DNA of 64,000 nucleotides from an uncultured Pseudomonadota bacterium (GCA_902788485.1 CADAKI010000001.1:114226-178225), one strand, 5' to 3'; numbered from the stretch's first letter, positions 858 through 27,813 are shown. A program made the numbers and translations. Notes: generated from the letters alone by a model not told the origin.

Positions 858-2177
858 TTAATTATTCAAAAATTCCCGCAACGCATTTCCCGACAATCCA
901 ACATTAGAATTTACGCCCGCCGCATCTGAATCAACCACAGATATAATTCTGGGCGACATAAACACAACCAATTCTGCGAATGGACTGACCAATGTTTCCG
1001 GCGTTGTCACAAACGAGTGTGTTGGAATACCGATAATCACATAATTATCACCAACACTGGACGGGATATTAAACGATGTTAATTCGCCATATTTTGTTGT
1101 CAGAACGATTTTTGCATCAATCTTTTGATACCCACCGTAATCGCCATATTTTCCCGTGGCACCGACAACCAAATCTGTTTCCAATCTATCTTCTTTACTG
1201 CATTGACCGATATCAAATTTAGATTGCCATCCGTTTGGAATCGAAAAAGTTCCCTGGGAAATCAAAACAACATTTGATTGTTGTGCCAAAAATTCTTGTA
1301 ATGTTTTCGTGTTTATTTCCGGCCCAACAACCAACGCACGCCCAACAACACCCGGCACAGACATTTTTATATTTTGTTTTCCAAACGCCGGCAATAAATT
1401 CATCCAAATAATCGGGTTGTCTGTTTTTGGATACACGCGATACACATCCATATCCCATGCCAGCATATATTTTTTCGATGCGATATCCGCGATTATGCGC
1501 GACACTTCACGTTCGGTTTGCCAATCACCTTCGAATACAACGGTTTTATCCGACCAATTCACCAACAAATTCCGCACATCCGCGCCATGCATTGCATCCA
1601 ATAACGCCATAATAATCGATTGGTCTTTAGGCATCTTAATCATCCATTTTGCACGATGTTTCAAATGAATTTCCGCCGTCGTTTCATCATAAGAATAATA
1701 TGCACGCCCCATTTTAGAAATCAAATCAACCGTATCTGACAAAGTCCCTGACGCAACATCGCCCGATATTTTTTCAACCAACTGTTCATCCATAACAATC
1801 GCGACATCGGTGCCATCCAACAATTTATTTAACGCCGCCGCCACCGTCATATCTTTAAATTTATACCCCGACACAGACAATTCAGGCAACGGGTCCCCAA
1901 CCCCCAACCGCACAATTTCGATTTTTTCCGCCGGCACAACCGATACAACCGATTGATTATTCCAATCAACCGTGCACCGCATAGGCAATTCAACCGAAAA
2001 CCGTTGTGCTGTATCCGTCGTCAACGCCGCCTTTTTTGGAAAAATAGGCACAGATTTTTCATTTATCACACTGTTTTCAACAACCGTGATTGTATCATAT
2101 TGCGGAATGTTGTCATTTGTGTTTTGGCATGCCGCACACAAAACAACCATAACAAACCCAATTAAAATTTTTTTCAT
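858..2177 (-). CDS. Outer-membrane lipoprotein with a secretin-like C-terminal domain (type IVb pilus PilN/BfpB/TcpC-like)
   Basis: Start at the ATG at 2177, preceded by GGAGG. Signal peptide MKKILIGFVMVVLCAAC carries a lipobox Cys. C-terminus ...ETLVSPFAELVVFMSPRIIS resembles the secretin signature (..ELLVFITPRIV). Size 440 aa. Confidence 0.55.
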   Translation of the reverse strand: MKKILIGFVMVVLCAACQNTNDNIPQYDTITVVENSVINEKSVPIFPKKAALTTDTAQRFSVELPMRCTVDWNNQSVVSVVPAEKIEIVRLGVGDPLPELSVSGYKFKDMTVAAALNKLLDGTDVAIVMDEQLVEKISGDVASGTLSDTVDLISKMGRAYYSYDETTAEIHLKHRAKWMIKMPKDQSIIMALLDAMHGADVRNLLVNWSDKTVVFEGDWQTEREVSRIIADIASKKYMLAWDMDVYRVYPKTDNPIIWMNLLPAFGKQNIKMSVPGVVGRALVVGPEINTKTLQEFLAQQSNVVLISQGTFSIPNGWQSKFDIGQCSKEDRLETDLVVGATGKYGDYGGYQKIDAKIVLTTKYGELTSFNIPSSVGDNYVIIGIPTHSFVTTPETLVSPFAELVVFMSPRIISVVDSDAAGVNSNVGLSGNALREFLNN

Positions 2178-3724: not shown

Positions 3725-5497
3725 ATGAATTTATCGGACTCTTGCTTTTTATGCCTTGATATCGGAACATCTTGCACCCGTGGTGTCGCACATCGTATTC
3801 GAAATGGGAAAATTGCAAAATCCGCAACCGCAATGTGCGACAATTTTAACCAACAATTCGCAATAAAATCTGTGATTGATAACTTGGAACACGAAATCGG
3901 CACCCATTTCGAAGACGCATACATCACCGGCAATTTTGGTAAATCTGAATTTTTACGCCCGCGCCAAAGCACATTGTGGAACAACGAACATAAAATCACA
4001 GAATCCGACATCCGTGTCCAAATTTCTAAAATAGAATTTCCAGATGGCTTTTCACCAATTCATATAATCCCATTACAATATGACACACCATCTGCACGCA
4101 AAATTGCAACGCCGATTGGTTATACCGACCATCAATTATTATCAACATTTGGCGTGATATGTTATGAAAACACCCGATTGAACGAAATTGTATCATTATT
4201 ACACAAGGCGCACATCCAATACAACGGCATGTTTGACCCGGGATATTTATTGGCACAAAACTTGCGCAAACCGGGTGAAACAATATTGTTGATTGACCTG
4301 GGGGCTGAATTTTCATCTATATCAATATGGAACAATCGTGGTGTGTTGTGGCACAAAAAATTACCGATTGGCATGTCCAATATAACAATGGATTTATCAA
4401 AATCATTAAACATCGATTTTGACGAGGCCGAAAGAATAAAACGCCAAACCGCAAATTTAATTCCACGCGCAATGGACCGTATGACGCCGGCCGATACCGC
4501 ATACGATTTCACCCGTGGCGATGTGAACGATATTGTTGTCCCAGATATTGTTGATATAATCGGACAAATTAAATCCGCATCCATGGACGCCGTATCAAAA
4601 TTATTACCCACCCGTATAATTGTCAGTGGTGGCGGCACACAAATTGACGGCGTTGTTGATTTCATAGGAAACGCATTTGCCATACCCGCCGAAAATCATC
4701 ATGCCGACGCAACAATAACCGCACTGTCTGATTATATATGGAACTCTGCGGCAAACGCCCGCGCGGCATACGCACAAAAAATGGCGCGTCATGAAAAATA
4801 CATAAACAAAATAAAAAAATTATTTACCACGCACCCCAAAAAGAAAAAGCCAAAATTTATACCAATCGCACCATCAACATTATGTTTTAATATGTATTCA
4901 CCTGCGACATATAAATTATTTGATGACGCGGGCATATCGACAATTCATGTTGATATAATGGACGGTTTTTATGTATCACGCGTGGCGGGTGGCATACATG
5001 AATTAAAAACAATTCGCGCAAACACACGCGCGCACCTGCATGTTCATTTAATGACCGAAAACCCGGCTGTATGGGCGGCCAACGCAATCCAGGCGGGCGC
5101 CGACACAATTATATTATCATTAAACACATCTGGGGTTCGGGCGGCTCTGCGCGGCATACGCGCAACCGGGCGCCGTGCCGGCGTTGCGATAAATCCCGAT
5201 ATTCCATTATCAACATTGGTGCCATTACTGCGCGATATTGACGAGGTTATGGTAATGGCGGTCCAACCGGGCGCCGCGGGTCAAGAATTCGACACATCTG
5301 TTCTGCAAAAAATTTTGGCCCTGGCCACAACACGCAAAAAACACGGATTAAAATATATTATATCTGTGGACGGCGGCATAAATGAAACAACCGCACAAAA
5401 ATGTTGGGACGCCGGCGCCGATTTATTGGTCAGTGGTTCTTATTTACAACATGCCCACGATTTTGCATTGGCTGTTCAAAGTTTATTAAAAAAATAA
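3725..5497 (+). CDS. ftsA: FtsA-like actin-family division protein (about 375 aa) fused in frame through a KKKKPK linker to a complete ribulose-phosphate 3-epimerase (Rpe) domain
   Basis: N-terminal part aligns with FtsA blocks (LCLDIGTS.., IIPLQYD, LLIDLGAEFSSISIW, IIVSGGGTQIDG). C-terminal 215 aa aligns with Rpe (IAPSTL..HVDIMDGFYV..HLMT..AVQPGAAGQEF..SVDGGI). No stop codon or obvious start separates them. Confidence 0.7.
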   Translation: MNLSDSCFLCLDIGTSCTRGVAHRIRNGKIAKSATAMCDNFNQQFAIKSVIDNLEHEIGTHFEDAYITGNFGKSEFLRPRQSTLWNNEHKITESDIRVQISKIEFPDGFSPIHIIPLQYDTPSARKIATPIGYTDHQLLSTFGVICYENTRLNEIVSLLHKAHIQYNGMFDPGYLLAQNLRKPGETILLIDLGAEFSSISIWNNRGVLWHKKLPIGMSNITMDLSKSLNIDFDEAERIKRQTANLIPRAMDRMTPADTAYDFTRGDVNDIVVPDIVDIIGQIKSASMDAVSKLLPTRIIVSGGGTQIDGVVDFIGNAFAIPAENHHADATITALSDYIWNSAANARAAYAQKMARHEKYINKIKKLFTTHPKKKKPKFIPIAPSTLCFNMYSPATYKLFDDAGISTIHVDIMDGFYVSRVAGGIHELKTIRANTRAHLHVHLMTENPAVWAANAIQAGADTIILSLNTSGVRAALRGIRATGRRAGVAINPDIPLSTLVPLLRDIDEVMVMAVQPGAAGQEFDTSVLQKILALATTRKKHGLKYIISVDGGINETTAQKCWDAGADLLVSGSYLQHAHDFALAVQSLLKK

Positions 5498-21194: not shown

Positions 21195-21222
21195 AAAAAA
21201 AATCCCCAAACGGGGATTTTTA
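21195..21222. terminator. Bidirectional terminator hairpin atccccaaacggggat flanked by A8 and T5
   Basis: Exact reverse complement of the hairpin at 22601-22626. Confidence 0.65.
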
Positions 21223-22491
21223 TATTGATATCGCCTCGCCGGCTTCGCGTTGTCGTGCCAACAATGCCGCCTTGCGTTTTGCTTCTTTTTCTTGGGCGCG
21301 TTTTAAATTTGCATTTGCGTTCTCAATGGCTTCCCTCATTTTAACCTTAACCTCACCTTTTTTAAACACACCGGCCTTACCAACTTCTTGTTCGCCAATT
21401 TCATACGCCGCAATCACCTCTAATGCACTTTGCAGCATTGAATTTATCGATGCCACCGCCGCGCGTTCATCATCATATTTTCTCAACAACCGGGCGCGCA
21501 ATTCTTTTTCGTGTTCGTAATTATCACGATATTGGTCACGCGATTGTGTTAATTTGAAATTATCCGATAATAATTTTTCATTTGCATTTATCAAATCTAT
21601 ATTTTGTTGTTCCAAAGTATTTTCATAATTTGTCACATATTGTGCATCACCCGACCCAACAACATTATCAAAATCATATTTTTCTTTGGCGATTTCTTGC
21701 CATTGATTTAACAATTTATAAAATTCTTTATTTACTTCTTTATCTTTTATTGCCTTACTCAATTCTGGACTTAAATCACGCCCATCCAATACAGTTCTAA
21801 TAAGAGACCCTGGTTTACTTAATATAACGCCAACATTATCTGTATTTGGCACATCTTTGTTTAATTCCACATCCAAATCTTCATCGGTTTTTGCAAATAC
21901 ATCATTTATAATTTTCAACGCATTGTCTTGTGTTTCTGCAAAATAAATCATTTCCAAAATATCGTCTGTTGTTGCATTTTGATTATTTGCCAACATTGTC
22001 GCAATATCTTTATAAACAGACATCCGTTTTTTCGGTATTTGCAATCCATATTTTTCTGCACACGGACGTTTATAATCAGATGTTGATTTCAAAATTTTTA
22101 ATGCATCATAAACCAAATCTTTATCTTTAAATTTATTCAAACGATTTAAAAACATTTGCGAATACGATGTATTGTCATACCCCCGCGAATCACCATCGTT
22201 TTTCGGATAAAAAACCTGCTCTGCGACAAATTTTACCGTATTTTTCACATCATCCGTGGCACTTGGATTTTTATGCAATTCAAACATAAATCCTAACACA
22301 TCCTCCACAGATTTTGATTTAATTTTTCTGTGCACTTGTAAAAATTCTTGAAAATTTGCATCTGGATTAAAACCCGTTTCAACCGCTTCCTGCCAAAATC
22401 CTTTATAATCTTCGTAATACAAATGCCACTCTTTACGCAAATCTATATATGCACGAACAAATGTTTCCAAATCAAATATAAAATCCGCCAT
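21220..22491 (-). CDS. Hypothetical 423-aa cytoplasmic protein with a C-terminal coiled coil (possible secreted effector or cargo)
   Basis: No signal peptide; C-terminal K/E/R-rich heptad region; no recognisable family. Confidence 0.45.
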   Translation of the reverse strand: MADFIFDLETFVRAYIDLRKEWHLYYEDYKGFWQEAVETGFNPDANFQEFLQVHRKIKSKSVEDVLGFMFELHKNPSATDDVKNTVKFVAEQVFYPKNDGDSRGYDNTSYSQMFLNRLNKFKDKDLVYDALKILKSTSDYKRPCAEKYGLQIPKKRMSVYKDIATMLANNQNATTDDILEMIYFAETQDNALKIINDVFAKTDEDLDVELNKDVPNTDNVGVILSKPGSLIRTVLDGRDLSPELSKAIKDKEVNKEFYKLLNQWQEIAKEKYDFDNVVGSGDAQYVTNYENTLEQQNIDLINANEKLLSDNFKLTQSRDQYRDNYEHEKELRARLLRKYDDERAAVASINSMLQSALEVIAAYEIGEQEVGKAGVFKKGEVKVKMREAIENANANLKRAQEKEAKRKAALLARQREAGEAISI

Positions 22492-22663: not shown

Positions 22664-23734
22664 TCAACCCAACATCATTGTAATTTGGTCTTGCATTTGA
22701 AATGTTGCCAACACAACCCACGCGATAATCACCGACACCAATAAAATGCCCACACTGTTTAACGCACTTGATAACGATTCCATTTTATTCACAGAATTTT
22801 GCAAATAATCCCGTGCAACATTTGAAATATTTAAACTAAAATCGTTCATATCAGAATAAATTGTTAAATCGCCAATCAATTCATTGTTTGGAAAATTGCG
22901 TCCCGTATTCGCCAACGCGACACCCAAATTATCACCATTTGCAATATATCGCAACGCCGATTCCAAAATATCACGCAAATACCTGTTTGAATTGTCCGCC
23001 AATATACGCATCGCATCCGGCACAGACACCCCGGCCGCAACAAAAGCCGACAAAGACATCATCCACCCAACCGACACATGAATTTTATAAATATTCCACG
23101 GCGCAATATTATCAAATTTTGTGCGCAACCATCCCGTCCAATTTGGCAATGATAACCACACCAATAAACACAATCCAACAAAAACACCTGCAATAATATG
23201 CCAATATTTTATTGAAAATTCTGACACCAAAATCAATAAATTTGCCGCCCCCGTCCATTGAACATTTGGTCCGGCAACCGATGCCAACGGCGGCACCAAA
23301 TAAACACCAACCATAATAATAATTGCAAATGTCAAAACCAACAAAAACAACGGATACGCGATTGCATTACGCATCGCCCGTTTAATTTTATTTATACCAA
23401 CAACAACCGTTTCCAAATTTTCCAACGAAACGATTAAATCTGACACATTTGCAGATGTCAATAACAGCGTCTCGTTTTCTGGCAACCATCCACGCGTTGC
23501 ATCTGCAAAAGACAAACCTTGTTCCAAACCTTTTTGCCATTGACGCATGGCGATTGCATAGGGTTCATCGGGCTTTTTACCATTATGCGATTCAATTTGT
23601 TCAATCCGCCCCAACGCATCCATCAAAGAAAAATTATTACGCAACAAAGACGCCAATTTGCGTATCAATGCCAAACGACGTTCTGTATTCCATTTGAATA
23701 CCATTTTTGCATATAATAATTCTAAATTTTCCAT
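22664..23734 (-). CDS. GspF/PilC-family inner-membrane platform protein (type IVb PilR/BfpE/TcpE-like)
   Basis: 356 aa; cytoplasmic N-domain, three hydrophobic segments and T2SS-F-like architecture; immediately downstream of the GspE-family ATPase. Confidence 0.6.
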   Translation of the reverse strand: MENLELLYAKMVFKWNTERRLALIRKLASLLRNNFSLMDALGRIEQIESHNGKKPDEPYAIAMRQWQKGLEQGLSFADATRGWLPENETLLLTSANVSDLIVSLENLETVVVGINKIKRAMRNAIAYPLFLLVLTFAIIIMVGVYLVPPLASVAGPNVQWTGAANLLILVSEFSIKYWHIIAGVFVGLCLLVWLSLPNWTGWLRTKFDNIAPWNIYKIHVSVGWMMSLSAFVAAGVSVPDAMRILADNSNRYLRDILESALRYIANGDNLGVALANTGRNFPNNELIGDLTIYSDMNDFSLNISNVARDYLQNSVNKMESLSSALNSVGILLVSVIIAWVVLATFQMQDQITMMLG

Positions 23735-23739
23735 TTTAT

Positions 23740-25374
23740 TTAATATTCCCCTGGCCTATCCAGTAAACCAACCCATCGTTCTAATTCATCAACACCAATA
23801 ATACCTTTTAACATCAATTCCGCCGCAGATTCTTTCAATGTGCGACCATCCATTTCTTCCAACCAATATTTCACCGCCAAATCGGTATTGCCCGAAATCG
23901 CTAGTCGTAAAAATTCACTGTTTGTGATAATGATTTCGCCGGCCTTGATACGCCCCAATGTACCCGAACCATTACATTCACTGCATCCCGGACCACGGAT
24001 AAATGTTTGCTTTAATCCGATTTCACCAAATGCATCCATAACACGCGAATATGCCGGATGTTCCGGATGATTTGATAACGCCTCGCGACAATGTGGACAT
24101 AATTTTTTAAACAAACGCATTGAAACCAAACCACGCATCAATGTTTCTTCTTTTAACTTGAACGCTTCGACCCCCATATCCAACAAACGCGTCAACGCCG
24201 CCATCGCAGAATTCGCATGTAATGTCGTCCACACATTATGCCCCGACAACGCACCACGCACCGTCAATTGTGCCGCGGCCAGTGTTCGAATTTCCCCAAC
24301 CATAATTGTATCCGGGTCACTGCGTAATGCGGCGGCCAACGCCTCGGTATATTTTTCATCGCGTTGTTCTTCGTTCATCGCATTGACGACCGGCATTTGA
24401 TGCGCACCAAAAATTTTTTGTTCGACCGGATTTTCCACCGTAATCATATTGATTTCGTAATTGCGTTCTTTCAACATCATTGACATATTTCGAACCAATG
24501 TTGTTGATTTACCTGAACTGGTTGGACCGGCAACAATCACCAACCCAGTTGGATACGCACGCAGCCGTTCCAACAATTTACGTTCATATTCGCCAAATTC
24601 TTGTTCGGTTTTTATACCTTCGGATGGGTTATCATATAATAATCGCATAACGACATAACGCGTTCCATATGCGATTGGATTAAATTGCATACGAATACTG
24701 GTGACACCATCTGGTAAAAACAAATCACGCGTTCCACGCAATGGGGTGCGACCATCTTTTTGTGCCGATTGATATTCATTTTGTGCATAGTTTGCATTTG
24801 AAATATCCGCCGACGCAAACGCCGCACGCACAAACGATTCACCCCACCCGGCATTATATTCCAATACGGGTTGCATACTGCCATCGATACGAAAATAAAT
24901 TGTTGTTTGGTCAGAAACCTCGATATGCACATCCGACACCTTTTGTGCCGCCGCCCGTGCGATAATATCGACAAAATCTTTCTGCATTTGGTTATCGAAA
25001 TCCGCATGGTTATGAACACCACCACCCAAACGCTCTTCGTATGTTTTATAAATCGCCGAAACCAAACCCAAATCAGAATAAAACGGTGTTTTCATCACCA
25101 TATTGCGTTCACGCAGCAAATCCAAAAACGCCAACACGCGCCCATCATATTTATGCGTGCGCGATATAATAATTTCACCACCTGAAAAATATGCGACCAA
25201 ACTTTGGACATCACGCGACAATTGCAACCGCGCACCCGTCGCCGTCAACAACCGATTACCATTAGAATACAAATAATCCACAATTTCTTTGATTTCTGCA
25301 TTTTCCATTGCCACCGGCACAGACGGTGTTTTTGAAAAATTTGCCTCGTCAAAATTTTTATTATCTTTACTCAT
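23740..25374 (-). CDS. GspE/PilB-family secretion ATPase (type IVb PilQ(R64)/BfpD/TcpT-like)
   Basis: 544 aa; Walker A VIVAGPTSSGKSTTL, Asp and His boxes (TLHANSAMAALTRLLDMGV), C-terminal tetracysteine CPHC...CSEC zinc motif. Larger than VirB11 and carries the Cys motif VirB11 lacks. Confidence 0.8.
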   Translation of the reverse strand: MSKDNKNFDEANFSKTPSVPVAMENAEIKEIVDYLYSNGNRLLTATGARLQLSRDVQSLVAYFSGGEIIISRTHKYDGRVLAFLDLLRERNMVMKTPFYSDLGLVSAIYKTYEERLGGGVHNHADFDNQMQKDFVDIIARAAAQKVSDVHIEVSDQTTIYFRIDGSMQPVLEYNAGWGESFVRAAFASADISNANYAQNEYQSAQKDGRTPLRGTRDLFLPDGVTSIRMQFNPIAYGTRYVVMRLLYDNPSEGIKTEQEFGEYERKLLERLRAYPTGLVIVAGPTSSGKSTTLVRNMSMMLKERNYEINMITVENPVEQKIFGAHQMPVVNAMNEEQRDEKYTEALAAALRSDPDTIMVGEIRTLAAAQLTVRGALSGHNVWTTLHANSAMAALTRLLDMGVEAFKLKEETLMRGLVSMRLFKKLCPHCREALSNHPEHPAYSRVMDAFGEIGLKQTFIRGPGCSECNGSGTLGRIKAGEIIITNSEFLRLAISGNTDLAVKYWLEEMDGRTLKESAAELMLKGIIGVDELERWVGLLDRPGEY

Positions 25375-25378
25375 GTTA

Positions 25379-26107
25379 TTACCGACTGGATATATTTAAA
25401 TTTTGTGTTTCGCCATCTTTGCTGAACACAACACCATCTTCCAAAGATATCGATTTCACAGTAAACCCGTTGATTTTTTTACCAACACTAACGCGTTTTG
25501 TTTGACCTGTTTCCAAATCAGACAATGTTGCCTGTAATTGATTTCCGGCCCCCATAACATTTACCAATTTATACATTGACGCAATATCTTCATCGTATTC
25601 TTCGCGTTGCTTTTTTTGTGCCACAGGTTTCTTTTTTGGTGTTGCCGCCGCCACATCTGATGTATCACCCGATTCTGCGGCCTCGGTTGCCGCCGCAATC
25701 GCGCGTTTTTCTTGTTCTATTTTCGCGGCCTCGGCCTCTAGGCGCGCTTTTTCATTTTGCAAAATTTGTTGTTCTTGCTCGGCGCGTCCCGACAGTGTAT
25801 CCATTTCCATTTGCAGTTTAATTTTTTCCGCCGCCAATCTGTCCAAATCTAAATCCAGTTGTGCGCGTTCTTTTTCTAACTCCATCAAAACTTTTTCTTG
25901 TTCCAAATCCGTAATTTGTTGAAACACCGTTCCATCAACATTATATGCACCAACCGCCATTGCAGACACATCATCCGCGACATCTGATTCCACATCCTCG
26001 ACGAATTCATCGGTTAAAATTTCATCATCAACCGCCCACGCATTTGGCACAACCAAAAACGCAAACAAAACGAACAACACACCAAATAATTTATTTTTAT
26101 TTTGCAT
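25379..26107 (-). CDS. Periplasmic coiled-coil protein with a PilP-like C-terminal beta domain (BfpU/PilP-type assembly component)
   Basis: Signal peptide, long coiled coil, C-terminal YKLVNVMGAGNQLQATL..VGKKINGFTVKSISLEDGVVFSKDG resembling the PilP secretin-binding domain. Confidence 0.5.
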   Translation of the reverse strand: MQNKNKLFGVLFVLFAFLVVPNAWAVDDEILTDEFVEDVESDVADDVSAMAVGAYNVDGTVFQQITDLEQEKVLMELEKERAQLDLDLDRLAAEKIKLQMEMDTLSGRAEQEQQILQNEKARLEAEAAKIEQEKRAIAAATEAAESGDTSDVAAATPKKKPVAQKKQREEYDEDIASMYKLVNVMGAGNQLQATLSDLETGQTKRVSVGKKINGFTVKSISLEDGVVFSKDGETQNLNISSR

Positions 26108-27452
26108 AGATTATAACCTCATAGTTCCAATTTCGTGTAACCACATTCCACGCACAACGCGTGATATAAAAACCACCAAAATCTTCAAACATTTTTGTAA
26201 ATTGCATTGGCAATAATTTTGAAGACACTTCGACCTCGACAACATTTAATTGTGCGACATCAACCCCATTTGTAATTGTATCAACAACAATTTCTGTTTT
26301 TACATCCATATTCATTGATTGAAACAAACTGACCACATTTCTTTCAACGGTTGCGGCATCACGCGCATCCATTGACGCCGCACGCGCAACATCCGGCAAA
26401 GACACCGACACACTCAACATGTTATCGTTTATTTCTGTGATTGTTGCACCCGGCAGAAAATCCGCCGCCATATCATAAAAAGTATCCAACGAACCGAATT
26501 TTCTGTTAAATTCCGCGGTGGCAGTTGTTTCATCACACGACACATTTGATTGCACCCACCCAGTAATCGGTTGCATTAAAAATCCGACCGCCTGATAACA
26601 TTGTTTTGCGCGTTGTTCCGGCACCGGCAAAGAATTATATGGCAACACCAACGGTTGAACATCGGGTTGTTTTTTGATATCAAACTGTTTGTCCAACTCT
26701 TTATTTTTTTCATCAATCTGGCGATTGTATTCATCAATCACAGATTTATCAATCACGGCCGGCCTTTTTGCCGTCATTTTATGAATTGGTTCATTAAACA
26801 ATAAATAAATTCCCGCAAAAAAAGCACACAATAAAACGACAGAAAACAATCTGGCGCGCCACAAATTTATTGCACGCAATTTATATTTTGCTTTGCGTGG
26901 CAAAACACTTGCCAAATCTTTTTCCATCGCACGCGGTATTGCCCATGCGTTTGGCGCAATAAACGCCGACCAATCCGGTATTTTTGAAAACCGTGCATAT
27001 TCGGCGCGCGCATCTGATTCATTATTAAACAGTTTATCCGCCAAAATAATTCCATTACGCACCGCCAACAAATAATATTTTTTATCAACAAAAAACACCG
27101 CCAAAAACGAAGAATATTCACTAAACGCGTCAACAATTTCGGCGGCGGCGGACGGCATACCCGACGCATATTGACGTGCCCGCGGTGCCAACCCAATCAT
27201 AGACCGATATTCAACATACAATTTCGCACGGGTATTTGAATTACGTGCCAACACACCGGCATATCCGCGTGATGTATAACCAACCGCCACCGGTTGCCAA
27301 AACAATCCGGCCGCAAAACGCCGCTTGTTCACGCGAAAAACTTCACTGAAAGTATTATCACGATTTTTCGAAAAATTTCCAAATATCCAACCCATTGAAA
27401 AATTCATCTCTCCTGTTTTATAATTATAACAAAAAAATACAATCTTTGGCAA
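26097..27452 (-). CDS. Bitopic inner-membrane assembly protein (R64 PilO / BfpC / TcpR-like)
   Basis: 451 aa; about 190-aa cytoplasmic domain, single TM LFSVVLLCAFFAGIYLLF, about 230-aa periplasmic domain; its place in the operon matches pilO/bfpC. Confidence 0.45.
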   Translation of the reverse strand: MPKIVFFCYNYKTGEMNFSMGWIFGNFSKNRDNTFSEVFRVNKRRFAAGLFWQPVAVGYTSRGYAGVLARNSNTRAKLYVEYRSMIGLAPRARQYASGMPSAAAEIVDAFSEYSSFLAVFFVDKKYYLLAVRNGIILADKLFNNESDARAEYARFSKIPDWSAFIAPNAWAIPRAMEKDLASVLPRKAKYKLRAINLWRARLFSVVLLCAFFAGIYLLFNEPIHKMTAKRPAVIDKSVIDEYNRQIDEKNKELDKQFDIKKQPDVQPLVLPYNSLPVPEQRAKQCYQAVGFLMQPITGWVQSNVSCDETTATAEFNRKFGSLDTFYDMAADFLPGATITEINDNMLSVSVSLPDVARAASMDARDAATVERNVVSLFQSMNMDVKTEIVVDTITNGVDVAQLNVVEVEVSSKLLPMQFTKMFEDFGGFYITRCAWNVVTRNWNYEVIIYAK

Positions 27453-27483
27453 ACAGATAATAATGCCACCACCAAAAATTTAA

Positions 27484-27813
27484 TTATTTTTTATTGCCAC
27501 AATCATAAACCCGTGCCGTCATTATATATTTATATTCCGGCCCAAACACCGCCCCATCAATCTTAACGGCATCATCGCGTTCCAACCAAAAATAATTTCC
27601 CGATTTGTTTTGTGCCACAATACGATTTTTTAAATACCGAACGGCATCATCATGGGAATACAAAGACACATCAACATCCATCTTATATAAATACATACAA
27701 TTTGTTGGTTGTGTATCTAATTGTATCAACGAATCCGCACCTGCATCAACCTTTACGGTATTTGTGCACGCCGAAAGACACAACAATAATAAACCAAATA
27801 TTTTTTTCATCAT
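27484..27813 (-). CDS. Small lipoprotein (109 aa), first gene of the pilus-like operon
   Basis: MMKKIFGLLLLCLSAC lipobox; 15 nt downstream of the lpxC stop. Confidence 0.5.
   Translation of the reverse strand: MMKKIFGLLLLCLSACTNTVKVDAGADSLIQLDTQPTNCMYLYKMDVDVSLYSHDDAVRYLKNRIVAQNKSGNYFWLERDDAVKIDGAVFGPEYKYIMTARVYDCGNKK

What the first reader, a model, noticed from the sequence alone, without database searches (positions are those of the whole stretch)
22664..27813. Type-IVb-pilus-like assembly core (R64 thin pilus / BFP / TCP gene order) transcribed directly downstream of lpxK-lpxC in a reduced alphaproteobacterial genome
Five co-directional, tightly packed minus-strand genes encode, in order: a small lipoprotein; a bitopic inner-membrane protein of 451 aa; a periplasmic coiled-coil protein with a PilP-like C-terminal domain; a GspE/PilB-family ATPase with Walker A, His box and a C-terminal CxxC...CxxC zinc motif, which excludes VirB11; and a GspF/PilC-family platform protein. 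This is exactly the pilO-pilP-pilQ-pilR order of the IncI1 R64 thin pilus, the bfpC-U-D-E order of BFP and the tcpR/S/T/E order of TCP. The cluster contains no pilin, no prepilin peptidase and no secretin. The only secretin candidate is 20 kb away at 858-2177. The first gene starts 15 nt after the lpxC stop, so the module looks co-transcribed with lipid A genes. Type IVb machinery is not a described feature of Rickettsiales/Holosporales-like genomes, which carry rvh-type T4SS (virB3/virB4 are present at 33684-36448). This could therefore be an undescribed pilus or secretion apparatus, or a degenerate one.
Basis: partly seen in the sequence, partly recalled or inferred. Interest (0 to 1): 0.72.

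Follow-up and report, generated by a model that had tools for sequence, protein, structure and literature searches.

The report
Scattered type IVb pilus machine, Enterousia
The five genes are real, and four of them form the conserved, selection-maintained core of a type IVb pilus assembly machine in Candidatus Enterousia, a gut bacterium with a genome under 1 Mb; its outer-membrane pore lies 20 kb away and, in relatives, its pilin genes sit at a third site.

Summary
Five packed minus-strand ORFs (22664-27813) lie 15 nt downstream of lpxC.

Four are homologous to the type IVb (R64/PAPI-1/BFP) assembly core:
- PilO2 (Pfam PF06864, above cut-off)
- PilP (TIGR03021, just above cut-off)
- an ATPase closest to BfpD (E 2e-77; GspE 2e-44)
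- a GspF-type platform

The host is not Rickettsiales/Holosporales-like. It is Candidatus Enterousia (order Rs-D84), a gut alphaproteobacterium with a genome under 1 Mb.

The block is core genome, not a remnant. It keeps the same context in 78 of 84 loci, and dN/dS is 0.06-0.34.

Pilin-like genes with class III signals (SG|RS[LM]IE) occur at another locus in related genomes. I found none in this window or its flanks. No prepilin peptidase or PilT was found in any sequence held.

The small lipoprotein travels with lpxC, not with pilO, so its membership is doubtful.

Verdict: a new, dispersed member of a known kind, of moderate interest.

The parts
26097..27395 (-). PilO2/BfpC-type bitopic inner-membrane assembly protein. 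It is 432 aa from the ATG at 27395; an alternative TTG at 27452 gives 451 aa.
   Evidence: Pfam PAP_PilO PF06864 scores 40.6 bits against a cut-off of 26.7. A profile of the family hits the PilO2Bp N-domain 4byz at E 9e-4. It is 25% identical to Bosea PilO2, E 6e-17. It has a single hydrophobic span at residues 177-203. NCBI names relatives 'type 4b pilus protein PilO2'.
25379..26107 (-). PilP-like periplasmic protein: signal or anchor, acidic and coiled-coil linker, then a C-terminal PilP domain.
   Evidence: NCBIfam TIGR03021 pilP_fam scores 37.0 bits against a cut-off of 34.65 over residues 115-227. An N-terminal hydrophobic segment spans residues 5-28. There is no significant PDB sequence match. 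dN/dS is 0.11-0.17.
23740..25374 (-). Type IVb extension ATPase (BfpD / R64 PilQ type).
   Evidence: Pfam T2SSE scores 219.7 bits. The best PDB match is BfpD 8dze at E 1.9e-77 over residues 37-529, against GspE at 1.9e-44. It is 33-35% identical to ATPases of PilO2-containing plasmid clusters. Walker A, Walker B, the His box and CPHC...CSEC are present. dN/dS is 0.06-0.09.
22664..23734 (-). GspF/PilC-family inner-membrane platform (R64 PilR / BfpE type).
   Evidence: Pfam T2SSF scores 80.1 bits with two stretches. It is 30-31% identical over its full length to the platform genes of the Bosea and E. coli T4b clusters. It has 3-4 hydrophobic segments.
858..2177 (-). Compact 439-aa outer-membrane lipoprotein secretin (BfpB/PilN/TcpC type). 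It lies 20 kb from the core and directly upstream of lolC/E-like and lolD-like genes.
27484..27813 (-). Small conserved lipoprotein (109 aa, two conserved Cys). It occupies the position TcpQ/BfpG has in reference clusters, but its membership of the pilus module is doubtful.
   Evidence: It has a lipobox and is conserved in 78 loci. It has no Pfam or NCBIfam family. It shows no similarity to TcpQ proteins or to any PDB chain. It always co-occurs with lpxC, with a median gap of about 20 nt, and is absent upstream of pilO in L019, L056, L058, L066 and L079. dN/dS is 0.17-0.34.
27423..27452 (-). Promoter-like site (TTGCCA, 18 nt, TG-TATAAT) in the 88-nt spacer between the lipoprotein gene and the pilO ATG.
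   Evidence: It matches 11 of 12 consensus positions with an extended -10. The number of such sites in the region equals the shuffle expectation, so this is only a candidate.

Best explanation
The cluster is the inner-membrane and periplasmic core of a functional type IVb-class pilus (or pseudopilus) assembly machine. It belongs to the core chromosome of Candidatus Enterousia (Alphaproteobacteria, order Rs-D84).

Inferred mechanism, from homology to BFP, R64 and TCP systems: the BfpD/PilQ-like hexameric ATPase drives the GspF-type platform. The platform extracts processed pilins from the inner membrane and adds them to the base of a growing filament. The bitopic PilO2-like protein and the PilP-like protein link this motor across the periplasm to the secretin. 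The filament leaves the cell through the compact lipoprotein secretin encoded at 858-2177.

Unlike the plasmid and island systems, the genes are scattered among housekeeping genes:
- the secretin sits next to lolCD-like genes;
- the core sits behind lpxK-lpxC;
- in related genomes, a 152-154-aa pilin lies behind dnaX (or next to uvrC), with three 405-451-aa pilin-like proteins nearby.

The most likely role is adhesion to a partner cell or gut surface in an organism thought to depend on partners. That role is inferred, not shown.
For: Homology of four genes to the T4b core:
- PF06864 and TIGR03021 both score above their cut-offs.
- BfpD is the best solved relative of the ATPase.
- Identity to PilO2-containing plasmid clusters with the same gene order is 25-35%.

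Secretin identification.

Core-genome status:
- Relatives occur in 266 species-level genomes, all Enterousia or uncultured gut Alphaproteobacteria.
- The order duf374-lpxK-lpxC-lipoprotein-pilO-P-Q-R-(hyp189)-gyrB is kept in 78 of 84 loci.
- GC content is the same as in the flanks.

Purifying selection: dN/dS is 0.06-0.09 for the ATPase and 0.10-0.28 for pilO, pilP and pilR. For comparison it is 0.12-0.19 for lpxC and 0.04-0.05 for gyrB.

Substrates exist in the genus:
- ORFs with a class III signal occur in L019, L066 and L079.
- 1382 relatives were found. G(-1), R(+1) and E(+5) are invariant in 119 of the 120 listed, and nearly all have two Cys.
- Sources name them 'Tfp pilus assembly protein PilE' or 'type II secretion system protein'.
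- There is a weak PilS_N hit.
- The pilin locus is conserved.

Lifestyle context: Rs-D84 genomes are under 1 Mb, lack standard transporters, and are proposed to depend on a partner (PMC12306168).
Against: - No pilin was found in this genome's own sequence as far as I could read it: the window, about 10 kb to its left and about 10 kb to its right in a same-species contig.
- No A24 prepilin peptidase and no PilT-type retraction ATPase were found in any of the roughly 90 loci held. Whole genomes could not be scanned.
- The pilin-like proteins have a 5-6-residue leader and Arg at +1. Neither is typical of T4b pilins. They reach no curated pilin model above threshold.
- The link between the pilins and this machine rests on co-occurrence in the genus and adjacency in only two loci (L066, L079).
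- The PilP assignment is marginal.
- No expression data exist and no filament has been observed.
Confidence: 0.75

Rival explanations
1. The same machine works mainly as a T2SS-like secretion device. A short pseudopilus pushes one or more proteins through the secretin instead of building a long adhesive pilus, as TCP does for TcpF and CFA/III does for CofJ.
For: The ATPase's best NCBIfam model is GspE. NCBI names one pilin relative 'type II secretion system protein'. No retraction ATPase was found. The pilin leader is short, as in pseudopilins. The secretin is compact.
Against: All Gsp equivalog scores are far below cut-off: 220 against 630 bits. BfpD matches the ATPase much better than GspE does. 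No GspC, L, M or G-K homologues reached threshold. PilO2 and PilP are T4b-specific parts. No candidate cargo is encoded next to the machine.
Confidence: 0.12
2. The machine is a DNA-uptake (competence) pilus. It would supply DNA or nucleotides to a metabolically reduced cell.
For: A DprA gene lies about 6 kb upstream of the cluster in L031. One pilin gives a weak ComGE hit. Reduced-genome bacteria often keep pili for DNA uptake (general knowledge, not tested here).
Against: DprA is widespread and not diagnostic. No ComEC or ComEA was seen in the sequence held. No retraction ATPase was found. The closest homologues are adhesive or conjugative T4b pili.
Confidence: 0.08
3. The cluster is a pseudogenised or orphan remnant of a once-complete T4b system and no longer assembles anything.
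For: The cluster contains no pilin, peptidase or secretin. No peptidase or PilT was located anywhere in the sequence held.
Against: The reading frames are intact in about 80 species-level genomes. dN/dS is 0.06-0.34, comparable to lpxC. All ATPase catalytic motifs are kept. A conserved secretin and a large pilin family exist in the genus. Genomes under 1 Mb with about 90% coding density do not retain 5 kb of dead genes (PMC12306168).
Confidence: 0.03
4. It is the thin-pilus module of an integrated conjugative element, as in R64 or PAPI-1, working with the nearby virB3/virB4 genes in mating.
For: PilO2-type pili are typically carried on plasmids or ICEs (PMC3984277). virB3/virB4 lie 6-9 kb away.
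Against: The block is flanked by lpxC/lpxK and gyrB in the same order in 78 of 84 loci from different species. Its composition is not deviant. No relaxase, shufflon, PilV or integrase is adjacent. The only integrase seen lies beyond the other end of the window.
Confidence: 0.02

Closest known systems
R64 thin pilus / PAPI-1 / Burkholderia Tfp7 'PilO2' variant of type IVb pili (pilN-O-P-Q-R...)
   Same: It has a PF06864 PilO2 protein, a TIGR03021 PilP, a GspE-family ATPase and a GspF-family platform in the same order. It also has a lipoprotein secretin (PMC3984277).
   Different: It is chromosomal core genome, not a plasmid or island. The secretin is unlinked, only 439 aa, and not recognised by Pfam Secretin. 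No TcpQ/PilL partner, PilT, PilU peptidase, lytic transglycosylase or PilV/shufflon is nearby. Identity is only 25-35%. The genus's pilins have 5-6-residue leaders and Arg at +1.
Bundle-forming pilus of EPEC (bfpG-B-C-U-D-E)
   Same: BfpD is the best solved match for the ATPase (E 1.9e-77). BfpB is the best structural match for the secretin. The order small protein, (secretin), bitopic protein, periplasmic protein, ATPase, platform is the same.
   Different: The small protein here is a lipoprotein with no similarity to TcpQ proteins, BfpG's homologue family. BfpG itself was not compared; it is not a lipoprotein and has an N0-like fold (PMC12531336). No BfpF retraction ATPase, BfpP or bundlin was found. 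The genes are scattered.
Type II secretion system (GspD-GspM)
   Same: It shares the GspE/GspF/secretin triad, the Zn-binding tetracysteine motif in the ATPase, and short-leader pilin-like proteins.
   Different: All Gsp equivalog models score far below cut-off. There are no GspC, GspL or GspM. PilO2 and PilP are present instead.
Type IV pili of ultra-small epibiotic bacteria (Patescibacteria/Saccharibacteria)
   Same: This is a functional analogy only. A pilus machine is retained in a genome under 1 Mb of an organism thought to depend on a partner (PMC12306168; the role of pili in Saccharibacteria is from my own knowledge, not tested here).
   Different: Those are T4a-like systems in Gram-positive-type envelopes without secretins. 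This one is a T4b-type machine in a diderm with LPS genes.

Membership tests
Type IVb pilus, R64/PilO2 variant | Bitopic PilO2/BfpC-family protein (Pfam PF06864) with a cytoplasmic actin-like N-domain | tested here: met
   PF06864 scores 40.6 bits against a cut-off of 26.7. The family profile matches the PilO2Bp N-domain 4byz at E 9e-4. There is one TM span.
Type IVb pilus, R64/PilO2 variant | PilP-family periplasmic protein (TIGR03021) | tested here: met
   It scores 37.0 bits against a cut-off of 34.65, which is marginal. No BLAST or PDB support was found.
Type IVb pilus, R64/PilO2 variant | GspE-superfamily extension ATPase of the BfpD/PilQ type with an intact catalytic and Zn motif | tested here: met
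   BfpD matches at E 1.9e-77 against GspE at 1.9e-44. Motifs are confirmed. Identity to T4b plasmid ATPases is 33-35%.
Type IVb pilus, R64/PilO2 variant | GspF-family platform with two T2SSF domains | tested here: met
   Pfam T2SSF scores 80.1 bits with two stretches. Identity to reference PilR is 30-31%.
Type IVb pilus, R64/PilO2 variant | Lipoprotein secretin (PilN/BfpB/TcpC) | tested here: met
Type IVb pilus, R64/PilO2 variant | TcpQ/BfpG/PilL-type secretin partner | tested here: not met
   The 109-aa lipoprotein shows no similarity to TcpQ proteins. No TcpQ hit was found in the window or loci.
Type IVb pilus, R64/PilO2 variant | Type IVb prepilin (long leader, about 180-200 aa, PilS/bundlin/TcpA type) | tested here: inconclusive
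   None was found in the window or its flanks. Relatives encode 152-154-aa pilin-like proteins with a 5-6-residue leader, G(-1), R(+1), E(+5) and two Cys. They give only a sub-threshold PilS_N hit, E 0.0038.
Type IVb pilus, R64/PilO2 variant | Prepilin peptidase (A24 family) | tested here: inconclusive
   No tblastn or Pfam hit was found in the window or in about 90 related loci, about 1.6 Mb in total. Whole genomes could not be scanned with the tools left.
Type IVb pilus, R64/PilO2 variant | Carriage on a conjugative plasmid or ICE with a PilV shufflon (typical, not universal) | tested here: not met
   The chromosomal context is conserved in 78 of 84 loci. No PilV hit was found.
Type II secretion system | GspE/GspF equivalogs plus GspC, L, M and pseudopilins G-K | tested here: not met
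   GspE scores 220.6 bits against a cut-off of 630. GspF scores 55.6 against 424. No other Gsp component was detected.
Tad/Flp pilus | TadA-type ATPase, TadB/C, RcpA, Flp pilin | tested here: not met
   The TadA-family model scores 38.5 bits against a cut-off of 373. No Flp-like ORF was found.
Type IVa pilus | PilB equivalog, PilMNOP, PilQ, PilT | tested here: not met
   PilB scores 188.8 bits against a cut-off of 675.65. PilM_2 gives only a sub-threshold hit (21.3 bits against a cut-off of 27), on the FtsA-like ORF at 3725-5497. No PilT was found.
VirB11 (T4SS ATPase) | VirB11 equivalog | tested here: not met
   It scores 52.7 bits against a cut-off of 249.95. The N-terminal domain and tetracysteine motif are of GspE type.

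The most novel reading that the evidence does not exclude
Candidatus Enterousia, and perhaps all of order Rs-D84, has fixed a dispersed type IVb pilus in its minimal core genome. The pilus would use non-canonical Arg(+1), short-leader pilins and three giant pilin-like tip proteins. It would serve as the organelle that attaches these bacteria to, or lets them feed from, a partner cell in the gut. That would make it a Gram-negative counterpart of the pili that epibiotic Saccharibacteria need. Possibly the prepilins are processed by something other than a classical A24 peptidase.
Probability: 0.25. Interest if true: 0.7.

Novelty: new member of a known kind. Interest (0 to 1): 0.45.

Why it matters
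Rs-D84/Enterousia bacteria are widespread in ruminant, horse, chicken and human guts. Their genomes are under 1 Mb, and the one comparative paper I could read reports no pili or flagella for them (PMC12306168).

A strongly conserved envelope-spanning pilus machine in such a genome is a concrete candidate for how these uncultured cells contact a partner or host. It gives targets for metatranscriptomics, FISH combined with cryo-ET, and enrichment: the pilin, the secretin and the ATPase.

It also shows that type IVb 'PilO2' machinery, usually seen on plasmids and islands, can become a scattered, vertically inherited core trait. In that form its secretin is so compact that standard domain models miss it.

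Tried and rejected
- Sequence searches of the 439-aa lipoprotein against PDB found nothing, either alone or as a shallow profile. hhalign against single reference secretins also found nothing.
- AlphaFold on a shallow alignment gave pLDDT 43. Only after the library-wide profile search did the deeper alignment give clear results.
- The small lipoprotein gave no Pfam or NCBIfam family, no PDB match and no similarity to TcpQ.
- Pilin motif scans of the window at two stringencies, plus a scan of unassigned ORFs, found nothing. The small ORFs in 30.4-32.1 kb are not pilins.
- Extending about 10 kb left (L085) and about 10 kb right (L093) found no pilin or peptidase.
- tblastn with reference A24 peptidase, PilT, PilV, pilins, TcpQ and lytic transglycosylase against all held loci gave no true hits. 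The PilT queries hit only the extension ATPase itself, and the secretin queries hit only the second secretin in L031.
- The downstream 423-aa ORF (21220-22491) was considered as a module member and rejected. It occurs in only 9 close relatives.
- The promoter and terminator scan is at chance level and cannot settle the operon structure.
- Literature searches found no description of type IVb pili in Enterousia, Rs-D84 or RF32.

Full report
**Observation**

The five minus-strand ORFs are present exactly as described:
- 27484-27813: 109 aa, lipobox LSAC.
- 26097-27452: 451 aa from a TTG start. Gene callers prefer the ATG at 27395, giving 432 aa.
- 25379-26107: 242 aa.
- 23740-25374: 544 aa.
- 22664-23734: 356 aa.

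The lipoprotein ATG lies 15 nt after the lpxC stop. pilO and pilP overlap by 11 nt, and the next two gaps are 4 and 5 nt. lpxC, lpxK and a DUF374 gene lie upstream. virB3 and virB4 are at 33684-36448.

The ATPase has Walker A (GPTSSGKST), Walker B (IMVGEIR), a His box (GHNVWTTLH) and CPHC...CSEC. The PilO-like protein has one membrane span. The 242-aa protein has an N-terminal signal or anchor. The platform has 3-4 hydrophobic segments.

**What the genes are**

- The 432/451-aa protein matches Pfam PAP_PilO (PF06864) above the gathering score: 40.6 against 26.7 bits.
- A profile of its relatives finds the crystal structure of the PilO2Bp N-domain, 4byz. That protein defines the R64-thin-pilus variant of type IVb machines (PMC3984277).
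- The 242-aa protein passes NCBIfam TIGR03021 (PilP) narrowly: 37.0 against 34.65 bits.
- The ATPase's best solved relative is the type IVb ATPase BfpD, at E 1.9e-77 over nearly its full length. GspE follows at E 1.9e-44.
- Every equivalog model for GspE, PilB, ComGA, PilT, TadA and VirB11 scores far below its cut-off.
- Against plasmids, the best matches (33-35% identity) are ATPases in PilO2-containing clusters of Bosea and E. coli, and bfpD.
- Those clusters read TcpQ, secretin, PilO2, PilP, ATPase, platform, then a PilT-like ATPase, with an A24 peptidase, a lytic transglycosylase and pilins in one or both.
- The platform is 30-31% identical to theirs, and PilO is 25% identical to the Bosea PilO2.

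**Whose genome**

The ATPase sequence occurs exactly on ENA ERZ28613628 scaffold_12, a 382-kb rumen metagenome scaffold. A scan of one genome per species found PilO relatives in 266 genomes. The 80 loci kept are titled Candidatus Enterousia or uncultured (Alpha)proteobacteria, one of them 'uncultured Rickettsiales bacterium'. They come from rumen, colon, chicken, horse and human gut, and include a circular 958,618-bp MAG.

Enterousia belongs to order Rs-D84. These genomes are under 1 Mb, lack respiration and standard transporters, and are thought to depend on a partner. The comparative paper I could read reports no pili for them (PMC12306168). The 'Rickettsiales/Holosporales-like' label is therefore wrong, although the reduced-genome context is right.

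**Not a remnant, not a mobile element**

The order duf374-lpxK-lpxC-lipoprotein-pilO-pilP-ATPase-platform, then a conserved 189-aa gene on the opposite strand and gyrB, is kept in 78 of 84 loci. GC content matches the flanks.

Pairwise dN/dS against eight relatives:
- ATPase: 0.06-0.09
- pilP: 0.11-0.17
- pilO: 0.15-0.28
- platform: 0.10-0.22
- lipoprotein: 0.17-0.34
- for comparison, lpxC: 0.12-0.19 and gyrB: 0.04-0.05

The downstream 423-aa ORF occurs only in nine close relatives and is not part of the unit.

**The secretin**

The ORF at 858-2177 is a 439-aa lipoprotein that is 74-100% identical across Enterousia. It is annotated everywhere as hypothetical, with no Pfam domain.

Direct sequence searches failed, and a shallow-alignment model was poor. 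A profile search of 1.84 billion representative proteins then found 148 relatives. I scanned ten 571-845-aa hits from the weaker end of that list against Pfam. All ten carry Pfam Secretin above cut-off, some also STN, and two a C-terminal TcpQ domain.

A profile-profile comparison of the 439-aa family with these secretins gave 99.96% probability and E 3.4e-39. It aligned residues 73-421 through the whole secretin domain to the C-terminal ELV..PR.I motif, with several deletions in the barrel.

The secretin gene is followed by lolC/E-like and lolD-like genes just beyond the window's left end.

**Pilins**

I found no class III signal sequence in the window at two stringencies, nor among the unassigned ORFs. 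I found none in the 10 kb to the left, and none of the genes called in the roughly 10 kb to the right resembles a pilin or peptidase.

The same scan over all related loci found clear candidates:
- A 152-aa protein in L066 and L079 (MKTESG|RSLIEVIG...).
- A 154-aa protein in L019 (MIQESG|RSMIEMLG...).
- Three 405-451-aa proteins with pilin-type N-termini in an operon in L066 and L079.

The small pilin family has 1382 detectable relatives. In 119 of the 120 listed, G(-1), R(+1), S(+2) and E(+5) are invariant behind a short leader, and nearly all have two Cys, consistent with a pilin-type disulfide. Some sources call them PilE or 'type II secretion system protein'.

Curated models give only sub-threshold hits: PilS_N at E 0.0038, plus N_methyl, ComGE and GspH/I/J.

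The usual context is rluD, two small genes and the three giant pilin-like genes on one strand, with a 103-aa gene, dnaX, the pilin and ompA on the other. In the L019 type the pilin lies next to uvrC. In L066 and L079 this locus lies 2-8 kb from pilO.

The genus therefore has plausible substrates. I could not locate this genome's own copy.

**What is missing**

No A24 peptidase, PilT, PilV, TcpQ or lytic transglycosylase was detected in about 1.6 Mb of related loci or in the neighbourhoods fetched later.

**The small lipoprotein**

It is conserved, with a lipobox and two invariant Cys. It has no detectable relative among Pfam or NCBIfam families, PDB chains or TcpQ proteins.

BfpG and TcpQ, which occupy this position in reference clusters, are not lipoproteins (PMC12531336).

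The lipoprotein is glued to lpxC, with a median gap of about 20 nt. pilO follows after a median of about 97 nt, 88 nt in this window, and that spacer contains a promoter-like site. In the five loci where pilOPQR has moved (L019, L056, L058, L066, L079), neither lpxC nor the lipoprotein is upstream.

It may therefore belong to the lipid A operon, or it may be a pilotin-like partner. I cannot tell which.

**Mechanism**

By homology with BFP, R64 and TCP machines, I infer the following. The ATPase powers the platform to lift processed pilins out of the inner membrane into a filament. PilO2 and PilP scaffold this motor and connect it to the secretin, through which the filament exits.

What is shown: the homology, the conservation, the selection, and the presence of a secretin and of pilin-like genes in the genus. 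What is inferred: assembly, the identity of the filament subunit, and function.

Adhesion to a partner cell or surface is my preferred role, given the proposed lifestyle. Secretion through a pseudopilus and DNA uptake remain possible; dprA is nearby in L031.

**Novelty**

The components are recognisable, and NCBI already labels relatives PilO2. This is therefore a new member of a known kind.

It has variant features worth recording:
- vertical core-genome inheritance in a minimal genome;
- genes dispersed among housekeeping operons;
- a compact secretin missed by domain models;
- Arg(+1) short-leader pilins.

I found no paper describing it.

Noticed in passing
window 3725-5497 (+): A single 590-aa ORF combines an FtsA domain (N-terminal part) with a ribulose-phosphate 3-epimerase domain (C-terminal part). 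Gene callers also call it as one gene. This is an unusual fusion, or a missed frameshift or stop.
   Followed up: no
L085 15177-17708 (about 4-7 kb left of the window start, same scaffold): A tyrosine-integrase gene (502 aa) and a REP_ORF2-G2P rolling-circle replication protein (weak Pfam hit) lie just past the lolCD-like genes. This looks like a small integrated element.
   Followed up: no
window 30923-30955 and 32010-32042: A 33-nt direct repeat (94% identical, 1087 nt apart) lies beside tRNA-Met (30613-30689). It brackets a 127-aa membrane-anchored ORF (31132-31515). It could be att-like scars of an insertion.
   Followed up: partly
L031 48-848 and 3042-4064: One Enterousia relative carries the C-terminal part of a second, canonical Pfam-Secretin protein next to rpsT, and a dprA gene, 6-9 kb upstream of its pilO cluster. 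The window shows neither.
   Followed up: partly
L066 2056-5929 and 8031-8486; L079; L019 19996-20457; L089/L090: The pilin-like family has a conserved SG|RS[LM]IE N-terminus (119 of the 120 listed): Arg at +1, a 5-6-residue leader and two Cys. Three 405-451-aa pilin-like proteins sit in an adjacent operon, and the pilin is co-oriented immediately behind dnaX. I believe Arg at +1 is unusual for type IV pilins, but I did not check the literature.
   Followed up: partly
window 21220-22491 (-): A 423-aa coiled-coil protein with no family sits between the platform gene and gyrB. It occurs only in nine close relatives. Other species have different or no inserts at this spot, with gaps of 0.7-5.4 kb.
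   Followed up: partly
window 32419-36448 (-): virB3 and virB4 are followed by two conserved ORFs of 206 and 236 aa with no family. No other T4SS genes are nearby.
   Followed up: no
window 858-2177 versus canonical secretins: The compact secretin aligns to canonical secretin domains with several deletions, of about 21, 12 and 6 residues, inside the barrel region. Whether the gate is shortened was not analysed.
   Followed up: no
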